A stretch of DNA of 64,000 bases from Dehalococcoidia bacterium (GTDB lineage Bacteria; Chloroflexota; Dehalococcoidia; UBA2979). Positions 35,473 through 56,299 of the stretch are shown in pieces; position 1 is the stretch's first letter, and each line of letters opens with the position of its first letter. The position numbers were made by a program, and so were the translations under genes. The stretch lies in contig CAXXDN010000001.1 of assembly GCA_963667465.2 (NCBI GenBank), positions 768,001-832,000 of the forward strand, written 5' to 3'. The notes under the pieces are model-generated. The model was given only the letters and a program-made list of their open reading frames with translations, was not told the DNA's origin and ran no database searches.

Positions 35473-36264
35473 TCAATCGCCCACCCCGTCGATAAACGCC
35501 AGCACGGCGGCGTTCCAGGCTTCCGGGCGCTCGAAGTAGGCGGAGTGGCCGGCGCCCTCGACCTCGACGTAGCGGGAGCCGGGGGTCAGCTCGTGCGAGA
35601 TGCGGACCAGCTCGGCAGGCACCACGCGCTCTTCCGCGCCGGCGATCCAGAGCAGCGGCGCTCCGCTGTCGAGCAGCCGCTCGCGCGTCGAGCCCCGGTA
35701 GTTGCGCATCGCCGGCGGCGGCGCCAGGAAGTCGCGAGGGCGCGGCGGGTTGATCGAGCGGATACGGCGATAGAGCCACTCGAGGGCCGGCTCGCGCTTC
35801 CGGAAGTCCTCGGCGAGCGCGCGCTGCAGCAGGCTGCCGGAGAGCGCCCCCGAGGCCTGTAACTCGGCCTTGCGCTCGCGCAGCCGGTCGTCGACGCAGC
35901 CGGCGTTGGAGCCGGAGATGGTGAGGGAGCGGAAGCCGTCCGGCCTGTGCCGCATCAGCCCGATCGCCGTGCGCGCGCCCATCGAGTGCGCGACGAAGTG
36001 CACCGGGCCGAGGTCCAGCCGCTCGACGAGCGCATGGATGTCGTCGCCGAAGGCGGCGCGGCCGGGGCCGCCCGCGATGTCGGGAGAGCGGCCGAAGGCG
36101 CGGTGGTCGAAGGTGACGACGGAGTAGCGCTCGCTGAAGGCGGGGATCTGCCGCCACCAGGACATGGCGTTGCCGCCCGCGCCGTGCGCGAAGACGACGG
36201 GCGGGCCCTCGCCGTGGCGCTCGTAGTAGAGGTGGAAGCCGTCGTCGAGTTCGAGGTGCGGCAC
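35473..36264 (-). CDS. Alpha/beta hydrolase
   Basis: HGAGG oxyanion loop, AHSMG nucleophile elbow, AGH.AYFE. Confidence 0.88.
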   Translation of the reverse strand: MPHLELDDGFHLYYERHGEGPPVVFAHGAGGNAMSWWRQIPAFSERYSVVTFDHRAFGRSPDIAGGPGRAAFGDDIHALVERLDLGPVHFVAHSMGARTAIGLMRHRPDGFRSLTISGSNAGCVDDRLRERKAELQASGALSGSLLQRALAEDFRKREPALEWLYRRIRSINPPRPRDFLAPPPAMRNYRGSTRERLLDSGAPLLWIAGAEERVVPAELVRISHELTPGSRYVEVEGAGHSAYFERPEAWNAAVLAFIDGVGD

Positions 36265-36485
36265 GGTGCAGGTCCTCGGCTGCGGGTCACACGGTACAGG
36301 CGAGGCTGGTTGCTGTCCGCGCTCGGGAGGGAGGGGACCCATCCACGCGCCCTCCATGTGCGGGCTTCGCCCGGTGCCCCTGCTTGTGGGGGGCTGCGCC
36401 CCTCACAAGCAGCTACGCGGGCCAGCTCGGAGGGCGTTGTGCATTCGGAGCGGCGCTCGCGCGCCGTCCCACTCACCCCAACCCT

Positions 36486-36728
36486 AATGGGGTTCGACCG
36501 GACCCTGGAGCGATCTGGGAGACTGGTCTTGGACCGGCCGGCCGGTGAGCACTGCCCCTCCCCGAGACACTGCGATCTCCAGGGAGAGACCGTGCCCCGG
36601 CTGGTGCGTCCGGGTGGTCCACAGCACTCCTGGGGTGTCGTGCCCGAGAGCACTGGTCCATTAGGCCGTCGCAGGACCAGCCCGGCAGGTCGCAAACAGC
36701 AGCACGAAGCGCAGGAAAGCGAGGCACG
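36486..36728 (+). ncRNA. Putative IS110 bridge RNA (target- and donor-binding loops); exact ends unknown
   Basis: 36629-39 identical to right end 37964-74; 36658-64 is revcomp of left end 36484-90; 36582-88 is revcomp of target CTCTCCC; both loops enclose small hairpins. Confidence 0.8.
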
Positions 36729-37952
36729 ATGACCCTCTACGTCGGTGACGACTGGTCCGAAGACCACCACGATGTCCAGCTCATGAACGAGGCCGGCGAA
36801 CGGCTCGCCGCCAGGCGGCTGCCCGAGGGCGTCGCGGGCGTCGCCGTGCTGCACGAACTGGTTGCCGAGCACGCCTCAGACCCGGGCGCGGTCGTGGTCG
36901 GCATCGAGACCGACCGCGGACCCTGGGTCACGGCCCTGCTCGCGGCCGGCTACCGCGTCTACGCGATCAACCCCCGCTCGGCGGCGCGCTACCGTGAGCG
37001 TCACCACCTGGGCGGCGCCAAGTCCGACGCCGCCGACGCGAAGCTGCTCGCCGACCTCGTGCGCACCGACCGCCACAACCACCGTCCGCTGGCCGGCGAC
37101 AGCGACGAGGCTGCCGCGGTGCGCATCCTCGCCCGCGCCCACCAGCAGCTGATCTGGGACCGCGTGCGCCAGACCAACCGGCTGCGCAACGCCCTCAGGG
37201 AGTATTTCCCGGCTGCCCTGCAGGCCTTCCCCAGCCTCGCGCACGGCGACGCCCTGGGCGTGCTGGCGCGGGCGAGCGAGCCGCGCGAGGCGGCGCGCCT
37301 GAGCACGTCGAAGATCCGCTCGGCGCTGCGCCGCGGCGGACGTCAGCGCAACCTCGAGCGGCGCGCCGCCGCGGTGCGCGACGCGCTGCGCTCCCCGCAA
37401 CTCGAGGCGCCGCCTGCCGTGAGCCGGGCGTTCGCCGCGAGCACCCGCGCGGCGGTCGCGCAGATCAGCGAGATCAACCGTCAGCTTACGGAGCTCGAGG
37501 CCGCGCTCACGAGCCATTTTGAGCAGCACCCGGACGCCGCAATCTACCGTTCCCTGCCCGGTCTCGGTGTCGTGCTCGGCGCCCGGGTGCTCGGCGAGTT
37601 CGGGGACGACCCCGAACGCTACGAGTCGGCGAAGTCCCGCAGGAACTACGCCGGCACCTCGCCGCTCACCGTAGCATCGGGCCGCAAGCGCAGCGTGCGC
37701 GCCCGCTTCGTGCGCAACCGCCGGCTCGCCGACGCCGTGGACCGCTGGGCGCTCTGCTCGCTGCAGGCGAGCCCCGGCTGCCATGACTTCTACCACCGCC
37801 GCCGCGCCGCGGGCGACCTCCACCACCAGGCGCTGCGCGCTCTCGGCAACCGCCTCGTCGGCTACCTCCACGGCTGCCTGAAGGCACGTCGCCCCTACGA
37901 CGAGGCCACCGCCTGGGCGCACCGCCACGACCGCGAACAGCTCGCCGCTTGA
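36729..37952 (+). CDS. IS110 DEDD recombinase/transposase
   Basis: VGDDWSEDHHD, GIET, INP, KSDAADA (DEDD), LPGLG, YAGTSP...SG Tnp-domain Ser. Confidence 0.96.
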   Translation: MTLYVGDDWSEDHHDVQLMNEAGERLAARRLPEGVAGVAVLHELVAEHASDPGAVVVGIETDRGPWVTALLAAGYRVYAINPRSAARYRERHHLGGAKSDAADAKLLADLVRTDRHNHRPLAGDSDEAAAVRILARAHQQLIWDRVRQTNRLRNALREYFPAALQAFPSLAHGDALGVLARASEPREAARLSTSKIRSALRRGGRQRNLERRAAAVRDALRSPQLEAPPAVSRAFAASTRAAVAQISEINRQLTELEAALTSHFEQHPDAAIYRSLPGLGVVLGARVLGEFGDDPERYESAKSRRNYAGTSPLTVASGRKRSVRARFVRNRRLADAVDRWALCSLQASPGCHDFYHRRRAAGDLHHQALRALGNRLVGYLHGCLKARRPYDEATAWAHRHDREQLAA

Positions 37953-37975
37953 CGCCTTAGCACCCTGGGGTGTCT
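37949..37975 (+). promoter_or_regulatory. -35 half (TTGACG) of a predicted IS110 circle-junction promoter
   Basis: Joining right end to left end gives TTGACG-N18-TCTAAT upstream of the non-coding region. Confidence 0.55.
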
Positions 37976-38038
37976 CTCCCGCCAGGGGCGAGGGGGCCGG
38001 ACCGCCGTCTCCCGCCAGGGGCGAGGGGGGCGGACCGC
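37975..38038. repeat. Tandem duplication (~33 bp x2) of the right half of the REP target
   Basis: TCTCCCGCCAGGGGCGAGGGGG(C/G)CGGACCGC at 37975 and 38008. Confidence 0.9.
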
Positions 38039-38043
38039 TCTGG

Positions 38044-38517
38044 CTAGTCCTCGTCCCAGGGGACGCCGGTGGCGTTGGCGACGACGTCGAGGATGTCTTC
38101 GATGTCGCCCCGTAGCTGCGGGTCGGGGTCGAGGGTGAGAGCGCGGCGGAGGATCTCGGTGGTGGCGGTGTAGAGGGTGGCGGCGTCCTGCGCGACGGGC
38201 TGGTGCGGCTGGCGCTGGCGCGGGTGATCGAGGGCGTGCGCGACGAACTCGCGGCACCAGCCGAGCGTGTAGAGGATCGCGGCGTCGCCGGGGCAGAGTG
38301 CGACGGCGCGCTCCAGCGCGCCGAGGCCGTCCGCGAAGCGCCGCTTGCGCGTGACCAGCGTGTTGCCGAGGTAAGCGTGCGCCTCGCAGAACTCCGGATC
38401 GAGTGCGACGGCCCCCTCGGCAGTAGCGAGGGCGGCGTCGATCTGGTCGTCGCTGTGCAGGCGCATCGCGCGGCGCAGCAGCGCGCGAGGGTCCTCGCCC
38501 TCGGCGCTGGTGGTCAC
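38044..38517 (-). CDS. TPR-repeat protein
   Basis: A..LDPEF.EAH.YLG, RAV.L.P.DA..LY.LG helical repeats. Confidence 0.75.
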   Translation of the reverse strand: MTTSAEGEDPRALLRRAMRLHSDDQIDAALATAEGAVALDPEFCEAHAYLGNTLVTRKRRFADGLGALERAVALCPGDAAILYTLGWCREFVAHALDHPRQRQPHQPVAQDAATLYTATTEILRRALTLDPDPQLRGDIEDILDVVANATGVPWDED

Positions 38518-48614: not shown

Positions 48615-48967
48615 CCCCCTCACCCCCGCCCTCTCCCGCAAGGGGAGAGGGGGCTGGACTCGCCCTCGTCGGTGCGTTGCCCCCTCCGGCGAGCTGCGCC
48701 CGCTCCCCCCCACCCCCGCCCTCTCCTCGCGGGGAGAGGGGGCCGGACGGTGCGCCCTCCAAAGCTCCGAGGGGGGCGTGGGGGCGCAGCCCCCACAGAG
48801 AGAAAATCCGAGGGCGGGTGGGTGGGCCAGAGCCGCGCAGCGTGCTCGTCCGGGATGGGGGTGTGGGGGGCGCAGCCCCCCGCAGCAGACACGCGCCTGG
48901 GCTTTGGAGGGTCGTCGTGTGCTCGGAGTGGCGCTCACCCCCGCCCTCTCCCGTCAGGGGAGCGGGG
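48615..48967. repeat. REP-like/BIME-type cluster (3 REP copies plus GTGGGGGCGCAGCCCCC modules)
   Basis: Copies at 48615-48653, 48705-48742, 48934-48967; modules near 48779 and 48864. Confidence 0.85.
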
Positions 48968-48990
48968 ACCGGAGGGTCGTTCGTGCAGCC

Positions 48991-56183: not shown

Positions 56184-56299
56184 CCCCCTCACCCCCGCCC
56201 GCTCCCGCCAGGGGAGAGGGGGCTGGACTCGCCCTCGATAGTCTGTTGCGCCCGCGAATCCGGCCCCCTCTCCTGGGGGAGAGGGTTGGGGTGAGGGGG
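56184..56299. repeat. Inverted REP-like pair; minus-strand copy carries intact IS110 target CCCCAACC-CT-CTCCC
   Basis: 56184-56222 (+) and 56264-56299 (-); linker shares GGCTGGACTCGCCCTCG with the 48615 cluster. Confidence 0.85.

What the first reader, a model, noticed from the sequence alone, without database searches (positions are those of the whole stretch)
36484..37975. IS110 element with a decodable bridge RNA programmed against the host REP repeat
Seen: the element is bounded by a duplicated CT and splits a REP (ACCCCAACC-CT-CTCCC). The 243-nt 5' non-coding region has two parallel loops, each opening with AGCACT and ending in AG (revcomp of the core). Donor loop: CCTGGGGTGTC (36629-39) equals the right end 37964-74 at 11/11, then hairpin GTGC/GCAC, then CCATTAG (36658-64), the revcomp of left end CTAATGG. 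Target loop: GCCCCTCCCC (36554-63) matches ACCCCAACCC at 7/10 (9/10 with wobble to REP variant ACCCCCGCCC), then hairpin GAGA/TCTC, then GGGAGAG (36582-88), the revcomp of CTCTCCC. Established: IS621 uses a bridge RNA, a CT core and REP targets. Inference: a divergent ~407-aa recombinase clade that also targets REPs with apparently long guides (10-11 + 7 nt), a candidate programmable recombinase. An unoccupied exact target lies at 56264-56299 (-).
Basis: partly seen in the sequence, partly recalled or inferred. Interest (0 to 1): 0.8.

Follow-up and report, generated by a model that had tools for sequence, protein, structure and literature searches.

The report
Bridge-RNA insertion sequence targeting REP repeats
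This is a mobile DNA element of the IS110 family that carries its own guide ("bridge") RNA aimed at a short palindromic repeat of its host genome: a convincing new example of a mechanism discovered in 2024, not a new kind of system.

Summary
The genome holds 10 full copies with identical ends, and 9 of the 10 split the same about 40-nt palindromic repeat at a CT core. The 407-aa ORF is a DEDD/Tnp recombinase that passes NCBI's "IS110 family RNA-guided transposase" model. It is only remotely like IS621: no pairwise hit, profile E 6.5e-11.

The 243-nt 5' leader folds into a 5' stem-loop plus two internal loops. This fold is conserved across 36 distinct relatives: 92.1% of cells paired, 19 pairs changed on both sides.

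- **Right target guide.** It tracks the right flank in 12 guide types (55 of 60 non-core positions against 1.64 of 5 for mismatched pairs).
- **Left target guide.** It tracks the left flank (122 of 184 against 2.71 of 8).
- **Handshake base.** A handshake-guide base covaries with target position 7.

The guide lengths need correcting. The left guides are effectively 9 nt, as in IS621. The right target guide is 6-7 nt, within the range already published.

RNA expression, the circular intermediate and recombination activity were not shown. Verdict: a real feature, a new member of a known kind, of moderate interest.

The parts
36484..37975 (+). Complete IS110-family insertion sequence (1492 bp, counted with the CT core at both ends)
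   Evidence: There are 10 genomic copies aligned over exactly 1-1492. Nine are 1492/1492 identical and one is 1491/1492.
36468..36485 (+). Left half of the split REP target (…CCACTCACCCCAACC) plus the left copy of the CT core (36484-85)
   Evidence: The same left arm is found at 9 of 10 copies and at empty REPs.
36496..36528 (+). 5' stem-loop of the bridge RNA (outer helix 36496-501 with 36523-528; inner helix 36504-508 with 36515-519)
   Evidence: In one search, helix 1 has 95.4% of cells paired across 36 sequences. The inner helix is weaker (70-78%).
36531..36611 (+). Target-binding loop module: closing helices 36531-34/36608-11, 36538-45/36597-604 and 36547,49-52/36592-96, around an internal loop
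   Evidence: In one search, helix 6 (13 pairs) has 98.1% paired, with 5 pairs changed on both sides.
36554..36563 (+). Left target guide block GCCCCUCC-CC. The effective guide is 36555-36563 (7 nt plus 2 core positions) and has the sequence of the top strand of the left target.
   Evidence: Across 23 guide classes, 122 of 184 non-core positions are identical (150 of 184 with rU:dG or rG:dT), against a cross mean of 2.71 of 8. 0 of 100000 permutations reach this. Position 1 matches in only 6 of 23 classes.
36564..36579 (+). Inner hairpin of the target loop (GAGA…UCUC)
   Evidence: In one search, helix 7 is 100% paired and 3 of its 4 pairs change on both sides (AU to CG/GC, GC to AU).
36582..36588 (+). 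Right target guide GGGAGAG, the reverse complement of CT+CTCCC on the right flank
   Evidence: It matches 7 of 7 here. Across 12 distinct guide types, 55 of 60 non-core positions match the element's own flank, against a cross mean of 1.64 of 5. Per position the counts are 7,12,12,12,12,12,12 of 12.
36589..36590 (+). Target-loop handshake guide (AC), complementary to GT, the last two donor bases before the core at the right end
   Evidence: AC or AU sits opposite donor GT in every locus that has a right end. The role is assigned by analogy to IS621 positions 81-82 (PMC11208158, passages read).
36612..36683 (+). Donor-binding loop module: helices 36612-20/36674-83 and 36624-27/36668,69,71,72, around an internal loop
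   Evidence: In one search, helix 8 (9 pairs) has 84.9% paired with 6 pairs changed on both sides. In helix 9, A-U changes to G-C in 5 sequences.
36629..36639 (+). Left donor guide CCUGGGGUGUC, identical to the right end 37964-74. The effective guide is 36631-39 (UGGGGUGUC).
   Evidence: The match is 11 of 11 here. In relatives, positions 1-2 do not track the right end, and the G/A at position 7 tracks it in 10 of 11 distinct pairs.
36640..36653 (+). Inner hairpin of the donor loop (GUGC…GCAC)
   Evidence: It is invariant in all 36 sequences, so always paired but uninformative for covariation (helix 10).
36658..36664 (+). Right donor guide CCAUUAG, the reverse complement of the left end CTAATGG
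   Evidence: The match is 7 of 7. CAUUAG and the end TAATGG are invariant in relatives, so no covariation is possible. The L046 and L054 elements have U at guide position 1 with an unchanged end.
36665..36666 (+). Donor-loop handshake guide (GC). Its first base pairs with target position 7 (C).
   Evidence: The first base is G where target position 7 is C (70 loci) or T (2 loci). It is C in the 3 loci (L071, L073, L079) where target position 7 is G.
36729..37952 (+). Recombinase gene, 407 aa (RuvC-like DEDD domain, long linker, Tnp domain)
   Evidence: PF01548 at 6.9e-38 and PF02371 at 7.1e-11. NF033542 scores 185.8 bits against a cutoff of 140. D8, D100, D103 and S317-G318 align with IS621 D11, D102, D105 and S241-G242.
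37949..37954 (+). TTGACG, candidate -35 box of a promoter completed only in the circular form (18-nt spacer, then TCTAAT across the right-end/left-end junction)
   Evidence: TTGAC lies at the same distance from the end in 26 of 27 distinct right ends. The -10 box lacks the canonical A at position 2. No promoter-like site is found in the integrated copy. This is inferred.
37964..37975 (+). Right end of the element (left donor half CCTGGGGTGT) plus the right copy of the CT core
37976..38002 (+). Right half of the split REP (CTCCCGCCAGGGGCGAGGGGGCCGGAC), followed by a second direct copy of the unit up to about 38040
56254..56299 (-). Unoccupied REP with the same left arm as the occupied site (CCCCCTCACCCCAACC-CT-CTCCCCCAGGAGAGGGGGCCGG)
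48615..48660 (+). Unoccupied REP target of the commonest type (…CACCCCCGCC-CT-CTCCC…). A second one lies at 48930-48975 (+), and an opposite-arm site at 48709-48754 (-).

Best explanation
The feature is an autonomous IS110-group insertion sequence that moves by bridge-RNA-guided recombination, as IS621 does.

**Shown here**
- The element has fixed ends and a CT core on both sides.
- It has 10 near-identical copies in the genome.
- It encodes a DEDD/Ser recombinase.
- Its 5' leader has a conserved, covarying fold: a 5' stem-loop plus two internal loops.
- The donor loop carries the sequence of the right end (left donor guide) and the complement of the left end (right donor guide).
- The target loop carries the sequence of the left REP arm (left target guide, 7+2 nt) and the complement of CT+CTCCC (right target guide, 2+4-5 nt).
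- In relatives with other insertion sites, those same positions change with the flanks.

**Inferred by analogy to IS621**
- The element leaves its site as a circle.
- Joining the right and left ends creates a promoter (TTGACG-18 nt-TCTAAT) that transcribes the leader from about 36493-36495, just before the 5' stem-loop.
- Recombinase tetramers hold one target loop and one donor loop.
- Each left guide pairs with the bottom strand and each right guide with the top strand, around the CT core.
- S317 cuts after the core.
- Handshake bases (AC at 36589-90, G at 36665) pair with the exchanged strands.
- The circle is then inserted into the 5' arm of the REP hairpin.
For: **Copies and sites.** There are 10 full copies with identical boundaries. 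Nine of the 10 lie in …CACCCCnnCC|CT|CTCCC… and one has the right flank AACCC. Among 494 empty and 9 occupied CTCTCCC sites, all 9 occupied sites have at least 5 of 7 identity to left-target-guide positions 2-8, against 89 of the 494 empty sites (Fisher p = 3e-7).

**Protein.** PF01548 plus PF02371. NF033542 'IS110 family RNA-guided transposase' scores 185.8 bits against a cutoff of 140. A profile of 14 clade members hits ISCro4 (1.3e-11) and IS621 (6.5e-11), with the catalytic Asp, Asp, Asp and Ser-Gly aligned.

**RNA fold.** On 36 distinct leaders, 49 pairs give 92.1% paired cells, against 25.5-45.6% when the 3' partners are slid. 19 pairs change on both sides, and 0 of 500 shuffles reach this. 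Many G-U pairs occur (for example 13 GU, 12 AU and 11 GC at one pair), so the + strand is the folded strand.

**Guide-target covariation.**
- Of 81 sequences (80 loci plus the window's copy), 75 were parsed.
- The right target guide equals the flank at 7 of 7 in 52 loci, 6 of 7 in 13 and 5 of 7 in 3, out of the 68 loci with a right flank.
- At class level, the right guide matches 55 of 60 non-core positions against a cross mean of 1.64 of 5.
- The left guide matches 122 of 184 against a cross mean of 2.71 of 8.
- In both cases 0 of 100000 permutations reach the observed score.

**Donor loop.** The matches are 11 of 11 and 7 of 7 here. A G-to-A change in the right end is mirrored in the left donor guide in 2 of 3 distinct pairs (5 of 6 loci).

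**Handshake.** The first handshake base of the donor loop is complementary to target position 7 in 73 of 75 loci, including the 3 loci where both have switched. The other 2 are G opposite T.

**Junction.** The -35 TTGAC is kept in 26 of 27 distinct right ends.
Against: - No RNA, circle junction or recombination product was observed. No RNA run is listed, and assembled contigs show no joints, which is uninformative either way.
- The window copy's own left target guide is imperfect. It matches 5 of 7 at this site and 6 of 7 at the commonest REP (a U opposite the position where most REPs have G). Only 1 of the 10 copies sits at the fully matching variant.
- REP identity and guide match are confounded within this one genome.
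- The single-sequence fold is no better than shuffles (z = -0.48).
- The junction -10 box (TCTAAT) lacks the conserved A at position 2.
- The donor guides are nearly invariant in the clade, so the donor loop rests on complementarity, one covarying column and analogy.
- One relative (L044/L045) has a perfect right target guide, but its left guide matches at only 2 of 8 non-core positions in register.
- No Rfam family matches the leader.
Confidence: 0.93

Rival explanations
1. The leader is a DNA-level or translational control region. In this reading the repeats of the element's ends inside the leader are subterminal binding sites for the recombinase, or an attenuator of transposase expression. 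Target choice is then made by the protein reading the REP, not by an RNA guide.
For: No transcript has been seen (one search lists no RNA holder). The donor-loop sequences are almost invariant, as protein-binding sites would be. The window copy's left guide matches its REP sites imperfectly.
Against: - The helices flanking the guides covary and use G-U pairs, which work only in RNA of the + strand.
- The guide positions change with the flanks in 12 right-guide types and 23 guide classes, while the protein stays 67-92% identical.
- The left guide has the sense of the top strand and the right guide the antisense, exactly the IS621 geometry (PMC11208160, section 7 passages).
Confidence: 0.04
2. 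The target is recognised by two cues together, as a 2026 preprint reports for ISPpu10. Bridge-RNA pairing supplies part of the specificity, and the REP stem-loop itself is a second, structural determinant. That would explain tolerated guide mismatches.
For: - The core lies in the 5' arm of a hairpin (CCTCTCC…GGAGAGG), seen directly.
- Copies sit at REPs with 5-6 of 7 left-guide matches.
- Relatives hit either arm of the same hairpin.
- The ISPpu10 preprint 10.64898/2026.03.19.712850 reports such a stem-loop gate (abstract read).
Against: 15 of the 23 guide classes in relatives insert at non-REP sites, with the same quality of guide match (80 of 120 non-core left-guide positions). A hairpin is therefore not required in the clade. 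Nothing here tests structure recognition.
Confidence: 0.2
3. The complementarities are chance matches in low-complexity, G+C-rich DNA.
For: The genome is 70.7% G+C. The target is C-rich, and CTCTCCC alone occurs about 500 times. The 7 of 10 left-guide match is unremarkable alone.
Against: The permutation results (0 of 100000), the slid-partner controls and the identical architecture in 36 distinct relatives all count against chance.
Confidence: 0.01

Closest known systems
IS621 (E. coli), the reference bridge-RNA IS110 element (Durrant et al. 2024, PMC11208160; Hiraizumi et al. 2024, PMC11208158)
   Same: - CT core.
- Long left non-coding end that encodes the RNA.
- 5' stem-loop, then target loop, then donor loop.
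- Left guides in the sense of the top strand, 9 nt including the core.
- Right guides antisense and ending in AG.
- Handshake position 7.
- G opposite donor T7 in the donor-loop handshake.
- REP target.
- -35 box in the right end.
- DEDD plus Ser-Gly active-site residues.
   Different: - The protein is 407 aa against 326 aa, with about 78 extra residues between the aligned RuvC and Tnp blocks.
- No pairwise sequence hit is found.
- The right target guide is 6-7 nt against 4 nt.
- The right donor guide pairs contiguously over 7 nt, whereas IS621's pairs discontiguously.
- The host is a 70.7% G+C Dehalococcoidia genome.
- The REP family is different.
ISPpu9 / ISPpu10 of Pseudomonas putida (PMC12288879 abstract in search listing; preprint 10.64898/2026.03.19.712850 abstract)
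   Same: These are IS110-family elements present in several copies. Each is inserted into a repetitive extragenic palindrome or a conserved intergenic stem-loop.
   Different: The phylum and the repeat are different. ISPpu9 is described with an sRNA gene downstream of the transposase, whereas here the RNA is upstream. The structural gating shown for ISPpu10 is untested here.
IS1111-group elements with seekRNA or a bridge RNA in the right end
   Same: They have the same DEDD recombinase family and RNA-guided targeting.
   Different: There the RNA lies in a long right end and subterminal inverted repeats are present. Here the right end is 23 nt after the stop codon and the RNA lies in the 243-nt left end.

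Membership tests
IS110 family, IS110 group (bridge-RNA-guided insertion sequences) | RuvC-like DEDD domain (Pfam PF01548) with the catalytic acidic residues | tested here: met
   PF01548 scores 6.9e-38 over residues 5-161. D8, D100 and D103 align with IS621 D11, D102 and D105 (the chain numbering is offset by 2). E60 is invariant in the clade, but the profile alignment places it two residues off IS621 E60.
IS110 family, IS110 group (bridge-RNA-guided insertion sequences) | C-terminal Tnp domain (PF02371) with the conserved Ser-Gly nucleophile loop | tested here: met
   PF02371 scores 7.1e-11. S317-G318 are invariant in 14 clade members and align with IS621 S241-G242.
IS110 family, IS110 group (bridge-RNA-guided insertion sequences) | Curated family model score above threshold | tested here: met
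   NCBIfam NF033542 'IS110 family RNA-guided transposase' scores 185.8 bits against a cutoff of 140.
IS110 family, IS110 group (bridge-RNA-guided insertion sequences) | No terminal inverted repeats; a 2-bp core present at both junctions; one orientation relative to a specific target | tested here: met
   All 10 copies have CT at both junctions, and 9 of the 10 lie in the same orientation in the same repeat.
IS110 family, IS110 group (bridge-RNA-guided insertion sequences) | Left non-coding end much longer than the right one (RNA encoded upstream of the gene) | tested here: met
   The left end is 245 nt and the right end 23 nt, each counted with its CT core (243 nt and 21 nt without it).
IS110 family, IS110 group (bridge-RNA-guided insertion sequences) | Non-coding RNA fold with a 5' stem-loop and two internal loops, conserved with compensatory changes | tested here: met
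   92.1% of cells are paired, 19 pairs change on both sides and 0 of 500 shuffles reach this. Slid controls give 25.5-45.6%. The structure was drawn by me from the reference sequence and the RNAalifold output, which favours it somewhat in the slid control.
IS110 family, IS110 group (bridge-RNA-guided insertion sequences) | Target-loop guides covary with the flanking target (left guide with the bottom strand, right guide with the top strand, core included) | tested here: met
   The right guide matches 55 of 60 positions and the left guide 122 of 184. 0 of 100000 permutations reach either.
IS110 family, IS110 group (bridge-RNA-guided insertion sequences) | Donor-loop guides complementary to the joined element ends | tested here: met
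   The matches are 11 of 11 and 7 of 7 in the window. Covariation is limited to one column because the ends are nearly invariant.
IS110 family, IS110 group (bridge-RNA-guided insertion sequences) | Handshake guide complementary to position 7 of the non-cognate DNA | tested here: met
   The donor-loop handshake base is complementary to target position 7 in 73 of 75 loci. The target-loop AC or AU sits opposite donor GT in all loci with a right end.
IS110 family, IS110 group (bridge-RNA-guided insertion sequences) | Promoter reconstituted at the circle junction | tested here: inconclusive
   TTGAC is conserved in 26 of 27 distinct right ends, 18 nt (17 nt in 5 of the 27) from TCTAAT. The -10 box lacks A at position 2.
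IS110 family, IS110 group (bridge-RNA-guided insertion sequences) | Expressed bridge RNA, circular intermediate, RNA-dependent recombination | not testable with these tools
   No RNA holder is listed. Only assembled contigs were available, and they show no joints.
IS1111 group / seekRNA elements | Guide RNA in a long right end, with subterminal inverted repeats of 7-17 bp | tested here: not met
   The right end is only 23 nt (21 nt before its CT core), and both loops lie in the left end.
REP (repetitive extragenic palindrome) as the target | Short imperfect palindrome, many copies, intergenic | tested here: met
   91 CTCTCCC sites carry the CACCC-type left arm, and the consensus is CCCCCTCACCCCCGCC-CT-CTCCCGCGAGGGGAGAGGGGGCCGGA. 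Intergenic position was checked for this locus only, which lies between a hydrolase gene and a TPR gene.

The most novel reading that the evidence does not exclude
This may be a deep-branching IS110 subclade of Dehalococcoidia and Actinomycetota. Its recombinases are about 396-407 aa, with about 78 extra residues in the linker between the RuvC and Tnp domains. Its bridge RNA reads a 13-14-bp target (7 + CT + 4-5) and uses rU:dG wobble in the left target guide to cover REP sequence variants. It has been naturally re-aimed many times, with at least 12 right-guide types, including a switch between the two arms of one REP by changing the left guide alone. If it is active outside its host, it would be an orthogonal, more specific bridge recombinase suited to G+C-rich targets.
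Probability: 0.4. Interest if true: 0.55.

Novelty: new member of a known kind. Interest (0 to 1): 0.42.

Why it matters
The finding shows that the IS621 rules can be read directly from natural variation in a lineage too distant from IS621 for pairwise sequence detection. Those rules are the guide geometry, the CT core and the handshake position. The host is an uncultured, very G+C-rich Chloroflexota genome whose DNA turns up in runs labelled sponge metagenome.

The clade offers a set of natural 'reprogramming experiments': 23 guide classes, including two sub-lineages aimed at opposite arms of one REP. It also offers a recombinase with a longer right target guide and a longer linker that could be tried as an orthogonal editing enzyme.

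For the genome itself, the element explains 10 identical 1.5-kb repeats and marks about 90 REPs as landing pads. It does not change the picture of how IS110 elements work.

Tried and rejected
- **Single-sequence fold.** The minimum-energy fold of the 243-nt leader gave -108.7 kcal/mol and z = -0.48 against shuffles. This is not informative at 70% G+C, and the fold pairs the two target guides with each other. I replaced it with the comparative analysis.
- **Rfam.** At E up to 10 on 36300-38100, no bridge-RNA-like family matched the leader.
- **PDB sequences.** The single protein gave no relevant hit at E up to 10. Only a 14-member profile reached ISCro4 and IS621.
- **Promoter and terminator scan.** The integrated copy gave 0 sites. 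The junction cannot be scanned with that tool and was read by eye and by script.
- **Sequencing runs.** No RNA holder is listed.
- **Contigs.** Contigs of 4 runs (X1, X2, X3, X8) were laid on 36300-38160. They show no joints, no circle junction and no empty-site form. The element is covered at several-fold the depth of its flanks. Contigs cannot show rare forms, so this is evidence neither way.
- **RNAalifold.** It paired the left end CTAATGG with the right donor guide. I did not keep this pair, because the inferred transcript starts downstream of the left end.
- **Alternative helix register.** I wrote an alternative in which 36610-14 pairs with 36681-85 instead of helix 36531-34/36608-11, but I did not count it.
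- **Literature.** A search for 'IS110' plus 'Dehalococcoidia' found 0 papers. That one search is the only basis for saying this clade is not described in the library.
- **Supplements.** The supplementary tables of Durrant et al. (orthologue lists) could not be opened and may already list relatives.
- **Rows dropped before the guide counts.** L003 and L009 have no left end. L066, L070, L075 and L077 are cut by contig ends. Seven parsed loci lack a complete right flank (L027, L031, L059, L073, L079, L074, L078).
Full report
**Observation.**
- A 1492-bp unit runs from CT at 36484-85 to CT at 37974-75.
- Its flanks are …CCACTCACCCCAACC on the left and CTCCCGCCAGGGGCGAGGGGGCCGG… on the right.
- The 243 nt between the left end and the ATG at 36729 contain AGCACT twice, at 36548-53 and 36623-28.
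- After the second AGCACT comes CCTGGGGTGTC (36629-39), identical to the element's last bases 37964-74.
- A GTGC/GCAC hairpin follows, and then CCATTAG (36658-64), the reverse complement of the left end CTAATGG.
- After the first AGCACT comes GCCCCTCCCC (36554-63), which matches the left flank ACCCCAACCC at 7 of 10.
- A GAGA/TCTC hairpin follows, and then GGGAGAG (36582-88), the reverse complement of CT+CTCCC.
- The empty site at 56264-56299 (-) is there and has the same left arm.

**Element and copies.** The window is C1:768001-832000 of a two-contig, 2.97-Mb genome with 70.7% G+C. A DNA search of that genome gave 17 matches:
- 10 span exactly 1-1492, nine at 1492/1492 identity and one at 1491/1492;
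- one is a partial copy cut by a contig end;
- six are weak.

All 10 full copies have the same ends. Nine lie in …C(A)CCCCnnCC|CT|CTCCC… and one has AACCC as its right flank.

The insertion here is intergenic. It lies between an alpha/beta-hydrolase gene (35473-36357, -) and a TPR gene (38044-38517, -).

**The target repeat.** There are 494 empty and 9 occupied CTCTCCC sites in the genome. In a separate scan of the genome with exact element copies removed (495 sites), 91 sites carry a CACCC-type left arm. The commonest form is CCCCCTCACCCCCGCC-CT-CTCCCGCGAGGGGAGAGGGGGCCGGA.

The unit is an imperfect palindrome (CCTCTCC…GGAGAGG), and the CT core lies in its 5' arm. All 9 occupied sites have at least 5 of 7 identity to positions 2-8 of the proposed left target guide. 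Only 89 of the 494 empty sites reach that level (Fisher p = 3e-7). Within one genome this is confounded with simply being a REP.

**Protein.** The 407-aa ORF has PF01548 (6.9e-38) and PF02371 (7.1e-11). It passes NCBIfam NF033542 'IS110 family RNA-guided transposase' at 185.8 bits against a cutoff of 140.

It is far from the solved enzymes. phmmer against all PDB chains finds nothing relevant even at E = 10. A profile of 14 clade members finds ISCro4 (9t56, 1.3e-11) and IS621 (8wt6, 6.5e-11). In that alignment:
- D8, D100, D103 and S317-G318 match IS621 D11, D102, D105 and S241-G242 (residue roles from PMC11208158, passages read);
- E60 is invariant in the clade but is aligned two residues off;
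- the aligned RuvC and Tnp blocks are separated by 95 residues here and 17 in IS621, so the linker, a coiled coil in IS621, is about 78 residues longer.

**Relatives.** A scan of one genome per species found 243 encoding stretches, of which the best 80 were kept.
- 75-92% identical: MAGs labelled Dehalococcoidia, many of them with several copies.
- 67-72% identical: records labelled Acidimicrobiales, Pseudonocardiaceae, Actinomycetota, Smaragdicoccus, Mycobacterium and, in three cases, Dehalococcoidia.

Of the 81 sequences (80 loci plus the window's copy), 75 could be parsed. L003 and L009 lack the left end, and L066, L070, L075 and L077 are cut by contig ends. The 75 give 36 distinct leaders and 23 classes of target guides.

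**RNA fold.** I aligned the 36 leaders and took the RNAalifold output as a start. I then wrote a structure with these parts:
- a 5' stem-loop;
- a target module, made of three closing helices, an internal loop and an inner hairpin;
- a donor module of the same design.

Counted on the alignment, 92.1% of 1753 cells are standard pairs, against 25.5-45.6% when the 3' partners are slid by 1-3 columns. 19 of 49 pairs change on both sides, and 0 of 500 shuffles reach the observed values for four of five measures.

Three details stand out.
- The inner hairpin of the target loop changes on both sides at 3 of its 4 pairs.
- The A of each 'AGCACT' is paired. A-U becomes U-A in 9 sequences and G-C in 1 in the target module, and becomes G-C in 5 sequences in the donor module. 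So GCAC is the last helix before each loop, not part of the loop.
- G-U pairs are frequent, which points to an RNA of the + strand.

I drew the structure partly from the reference sequence, so the slid control is somewhat favourable to it.

**Guides against flanks.**

*Right target guide.* This is the 7 nt ending in AG before A-Y-Y-R.
- It equals the reverse complement of the right flank (CT+5) at 7 of 7 in 52 loci, 6 of 7 in 13 and 5 of 7 in 3, out of the 68 loci with a full right flank.
- Collapsed to 12 distinct guide types, 55 of 60 non-core positions match the element's own flank. Mismatched pairs average 1.64 of 5, and 0 of 100000 permutations reach this.
- All five misses are at the position farthest from the core, which matches in 7 of 12 types (binomial p = 0.014).

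*Left target guide.* This is the 10 nt after GCAC-U, of which the last two face the core.
- It matches the left flank at 122 of 184 non-core positions, or 150 of 184 if rU:dG and rG:dT are allowed.
- The cross mean is 2.71 of 8, and 0 of 100000 permutations reach this.
- Its first position matches in only 6 of 23 classes, so the working guide is 9 nt (7+2), as in IS621.
- The second core-facing base is often not U (C here, A in several relatives).

*Left donor guide.* It matches the right end at positions 3-11. Positions 1-2 do not track the end (5 and 7 of 11 distinct pairs). A G/A difference in the end is mirrored in the guide in 10 of 11 distinct pairs.

*Right donor guide.* Both it and the left end are nearly invariant, so no covariation can be seen.

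*Handshake guides.* The base after the right donor guide is G where target position 7 is C (70 loci) or T (2 loci). It is C in the three loci (L071, L073, L079) where target position 7 is G. The two bases after the right target guide (AC or AU) are complementary to GT, the last donor bases before the core. This is the handshake-guide pattern described for IS621 and IS110 orthologues (PMC11208158, passages read).

**Natural retargeting.** 42 of the 75 parsed loci keep the guide GGGAGAG and sit in the REP. Within these, one sub-lineage (L001-L007, L055, L065) has a different left guide (GUGGCUCC-CU or GCGGACCC-CC). It sits at TCCGGCyCC|CT|CTCCCC, which is the opposite arm of the same palindrome read on the other strand. 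The other 15 guide classes sit at unrelated, non-REP sites with equally good matches (80 of 120). A REP hairpin is therefore not needed in the clade.

**Promoter.** In the joined form the right end contributes TTGACG (37949-54, overlapping the stop codon). The junction gives TCTAAT after an 18-nt spacer. TTGAC is kept at that distance in 26 of 27 distinct right ends, including elements whose ORF ends elsewhere. The integrated copy has no sigma-70-like site. The -10 box lacks the canonical A at position 2, so this part is inferred. A start about 7 nt downstream would put the 5' end just before the 5' stem-loop. That would leave the left-end bases, which could otherwise pair with the right donor guide, out of the RNA.

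**Mechanism.** The copies, ends, protein family, RNA fold and guide-flank covariation are shown. The rest is inferred from IS621 (PMC11208160 sections 7 and 12 and passages; PMC11208158 passages; abstracts of PMC13626964 and of preprint 10.64898/2026.08.31.748434). The inferred steps are:
- excision to a circle;
- transcription from the junction;
- a recombinase tetramer holding a target loop and a donor loop;
- top-strand cleavage after the core by S317;
- strand exchange helped by the handshake bases;
- resolution.

The one copy with a matching left half and a deviating right half (CT-AACCC; also seen at L001 and L002) resembles the 'half-match' off-target insertions described in that preprint's abstract.

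**What is not shown.** There is no RNA, no circle and no activity. No RNA run is listed, and only assembled contigs could be laid. These show the element at several-fold the depth of its flanks and no joints. The window copy's left guide has U where most REPs have G, and only 1 of the 10 copies sits at the perfectly matching variant. The mismatch is evidently tolerated. Whether the hairpin helps, as reported for ISPpu10 (preprint abstract), is open.

**Comparison and novelty.** Every defining feature of an IS110-group bridge-RNA element that can be read from sequence is met. The IS1111 layout is not met. The guide lengths (9 and 6-7 nt, giving a 13-14-bp target) lie within the 8-14 nt reported for diverse IS110s. 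Longer right target guides than IS621's are already noted in PMC11208160 (sections 7 and 12).

What is new is the lineage, the REP family, and a clean natural data set of re-aimed guides with handshake covariation. One full-text search (IS110 + Dehalococcoidia) found no paper. Supplementary orthologue tables could not be read and may include relatives.

I rate it a new member of a known kind, with interest 0.42.

Noticed in passing
G000 C1:222989-223828, C1:459421-460260, C2:26243-27082 (outside the window): The same genome holds a second, unrelated IS110-family element, about 1518 bp, in 3 copies, with about 30% amino-acid identity to the window's recombinase. Its leader contains GATGGGGACA, which equals its own right end. 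It also contains CGTAAGG, the reverse complement of its left end CCTTAC. So it too has a readable donor loop, and a TTGAC in its right end. Its flanks are not REPs.
   Followed up: partly
window 37553-37634 (-): Rfam RF02464 'Actinobacteria sRNA Ms_AS-4' matches at 65.1 bits (gathering score 50), antisense and inside the recombinase ORF, over the conserved GLGVVLGARVLGEFGDDP segment. The family may simply be a conserved IS110 coding stretch seen as antisense RNA.
   Followed up: no
L001-L007, L055, L065 (relatives): A sub-lineage targets the opposite arm of the same REP (TCCGGCyCC|CT|CTCCCC) with a changed left target guide and an unchanged right guide. Genomes such as the one holding L002, L025 and L055 carry both sub-lineages.
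   Followed up: partly
L008-L043, L061-L064, L068 (relatives): The REP-directed left guides of relatives (UCCUUGCC, GCCUUGCC, UCCUCGCC) place U opposite target C at 2-4 positions (rU:dG). One of these positions is where REP variants carry C or T. This could be a way of covering repeat variants.
   Followed up: no
L003 and L009: These copies are truncated at the 5' side. L003 keeps only the donor loop and L009 keeps neither loop, and unrelated sequence lies upstream.
   Followed up: no
L044/L045; L026-L031; L080: Three oddities turned up. L044/L045 have a perfect right guide, but their left guide matches at 2 of 8 non-core positions unless slipped by 1 nt. The L026 family needs a 2-nt shift of the left-guide register. 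L080 has TT instead of CT at its left junction.
   Followed up: no
window 36380-36411: A different G+C-rich palindrome (CTGCTTGTGGGGGGCTGCGCCCCTCACAAGCAG) lies just downstream of the hydrolase gene. Similar CGCAGCCCCCCACAG-type motifs appear in the flanks of several relatives' insertions, so it may be a second repeat family or a terminator.
   Followed up: no
window 37976-38040: The right half of the split REP is followed by a second direct copy of the unit (TCTCCCGCCAGGGGCGAGGGGG…). REPs here occur in tandem clusters, as is also seen in the genome list.
   Followed up: no
runs X1-X8 (coded): The stretch is held almost completely (0.81-0.97 of sampled words) by 8 runs from 3 studies. Three of these runs are labelled sponge metagenome and five carry the coded label 'organism A'. 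The host is therefore probably a sponge-associated bacterium.
   Followed up: no
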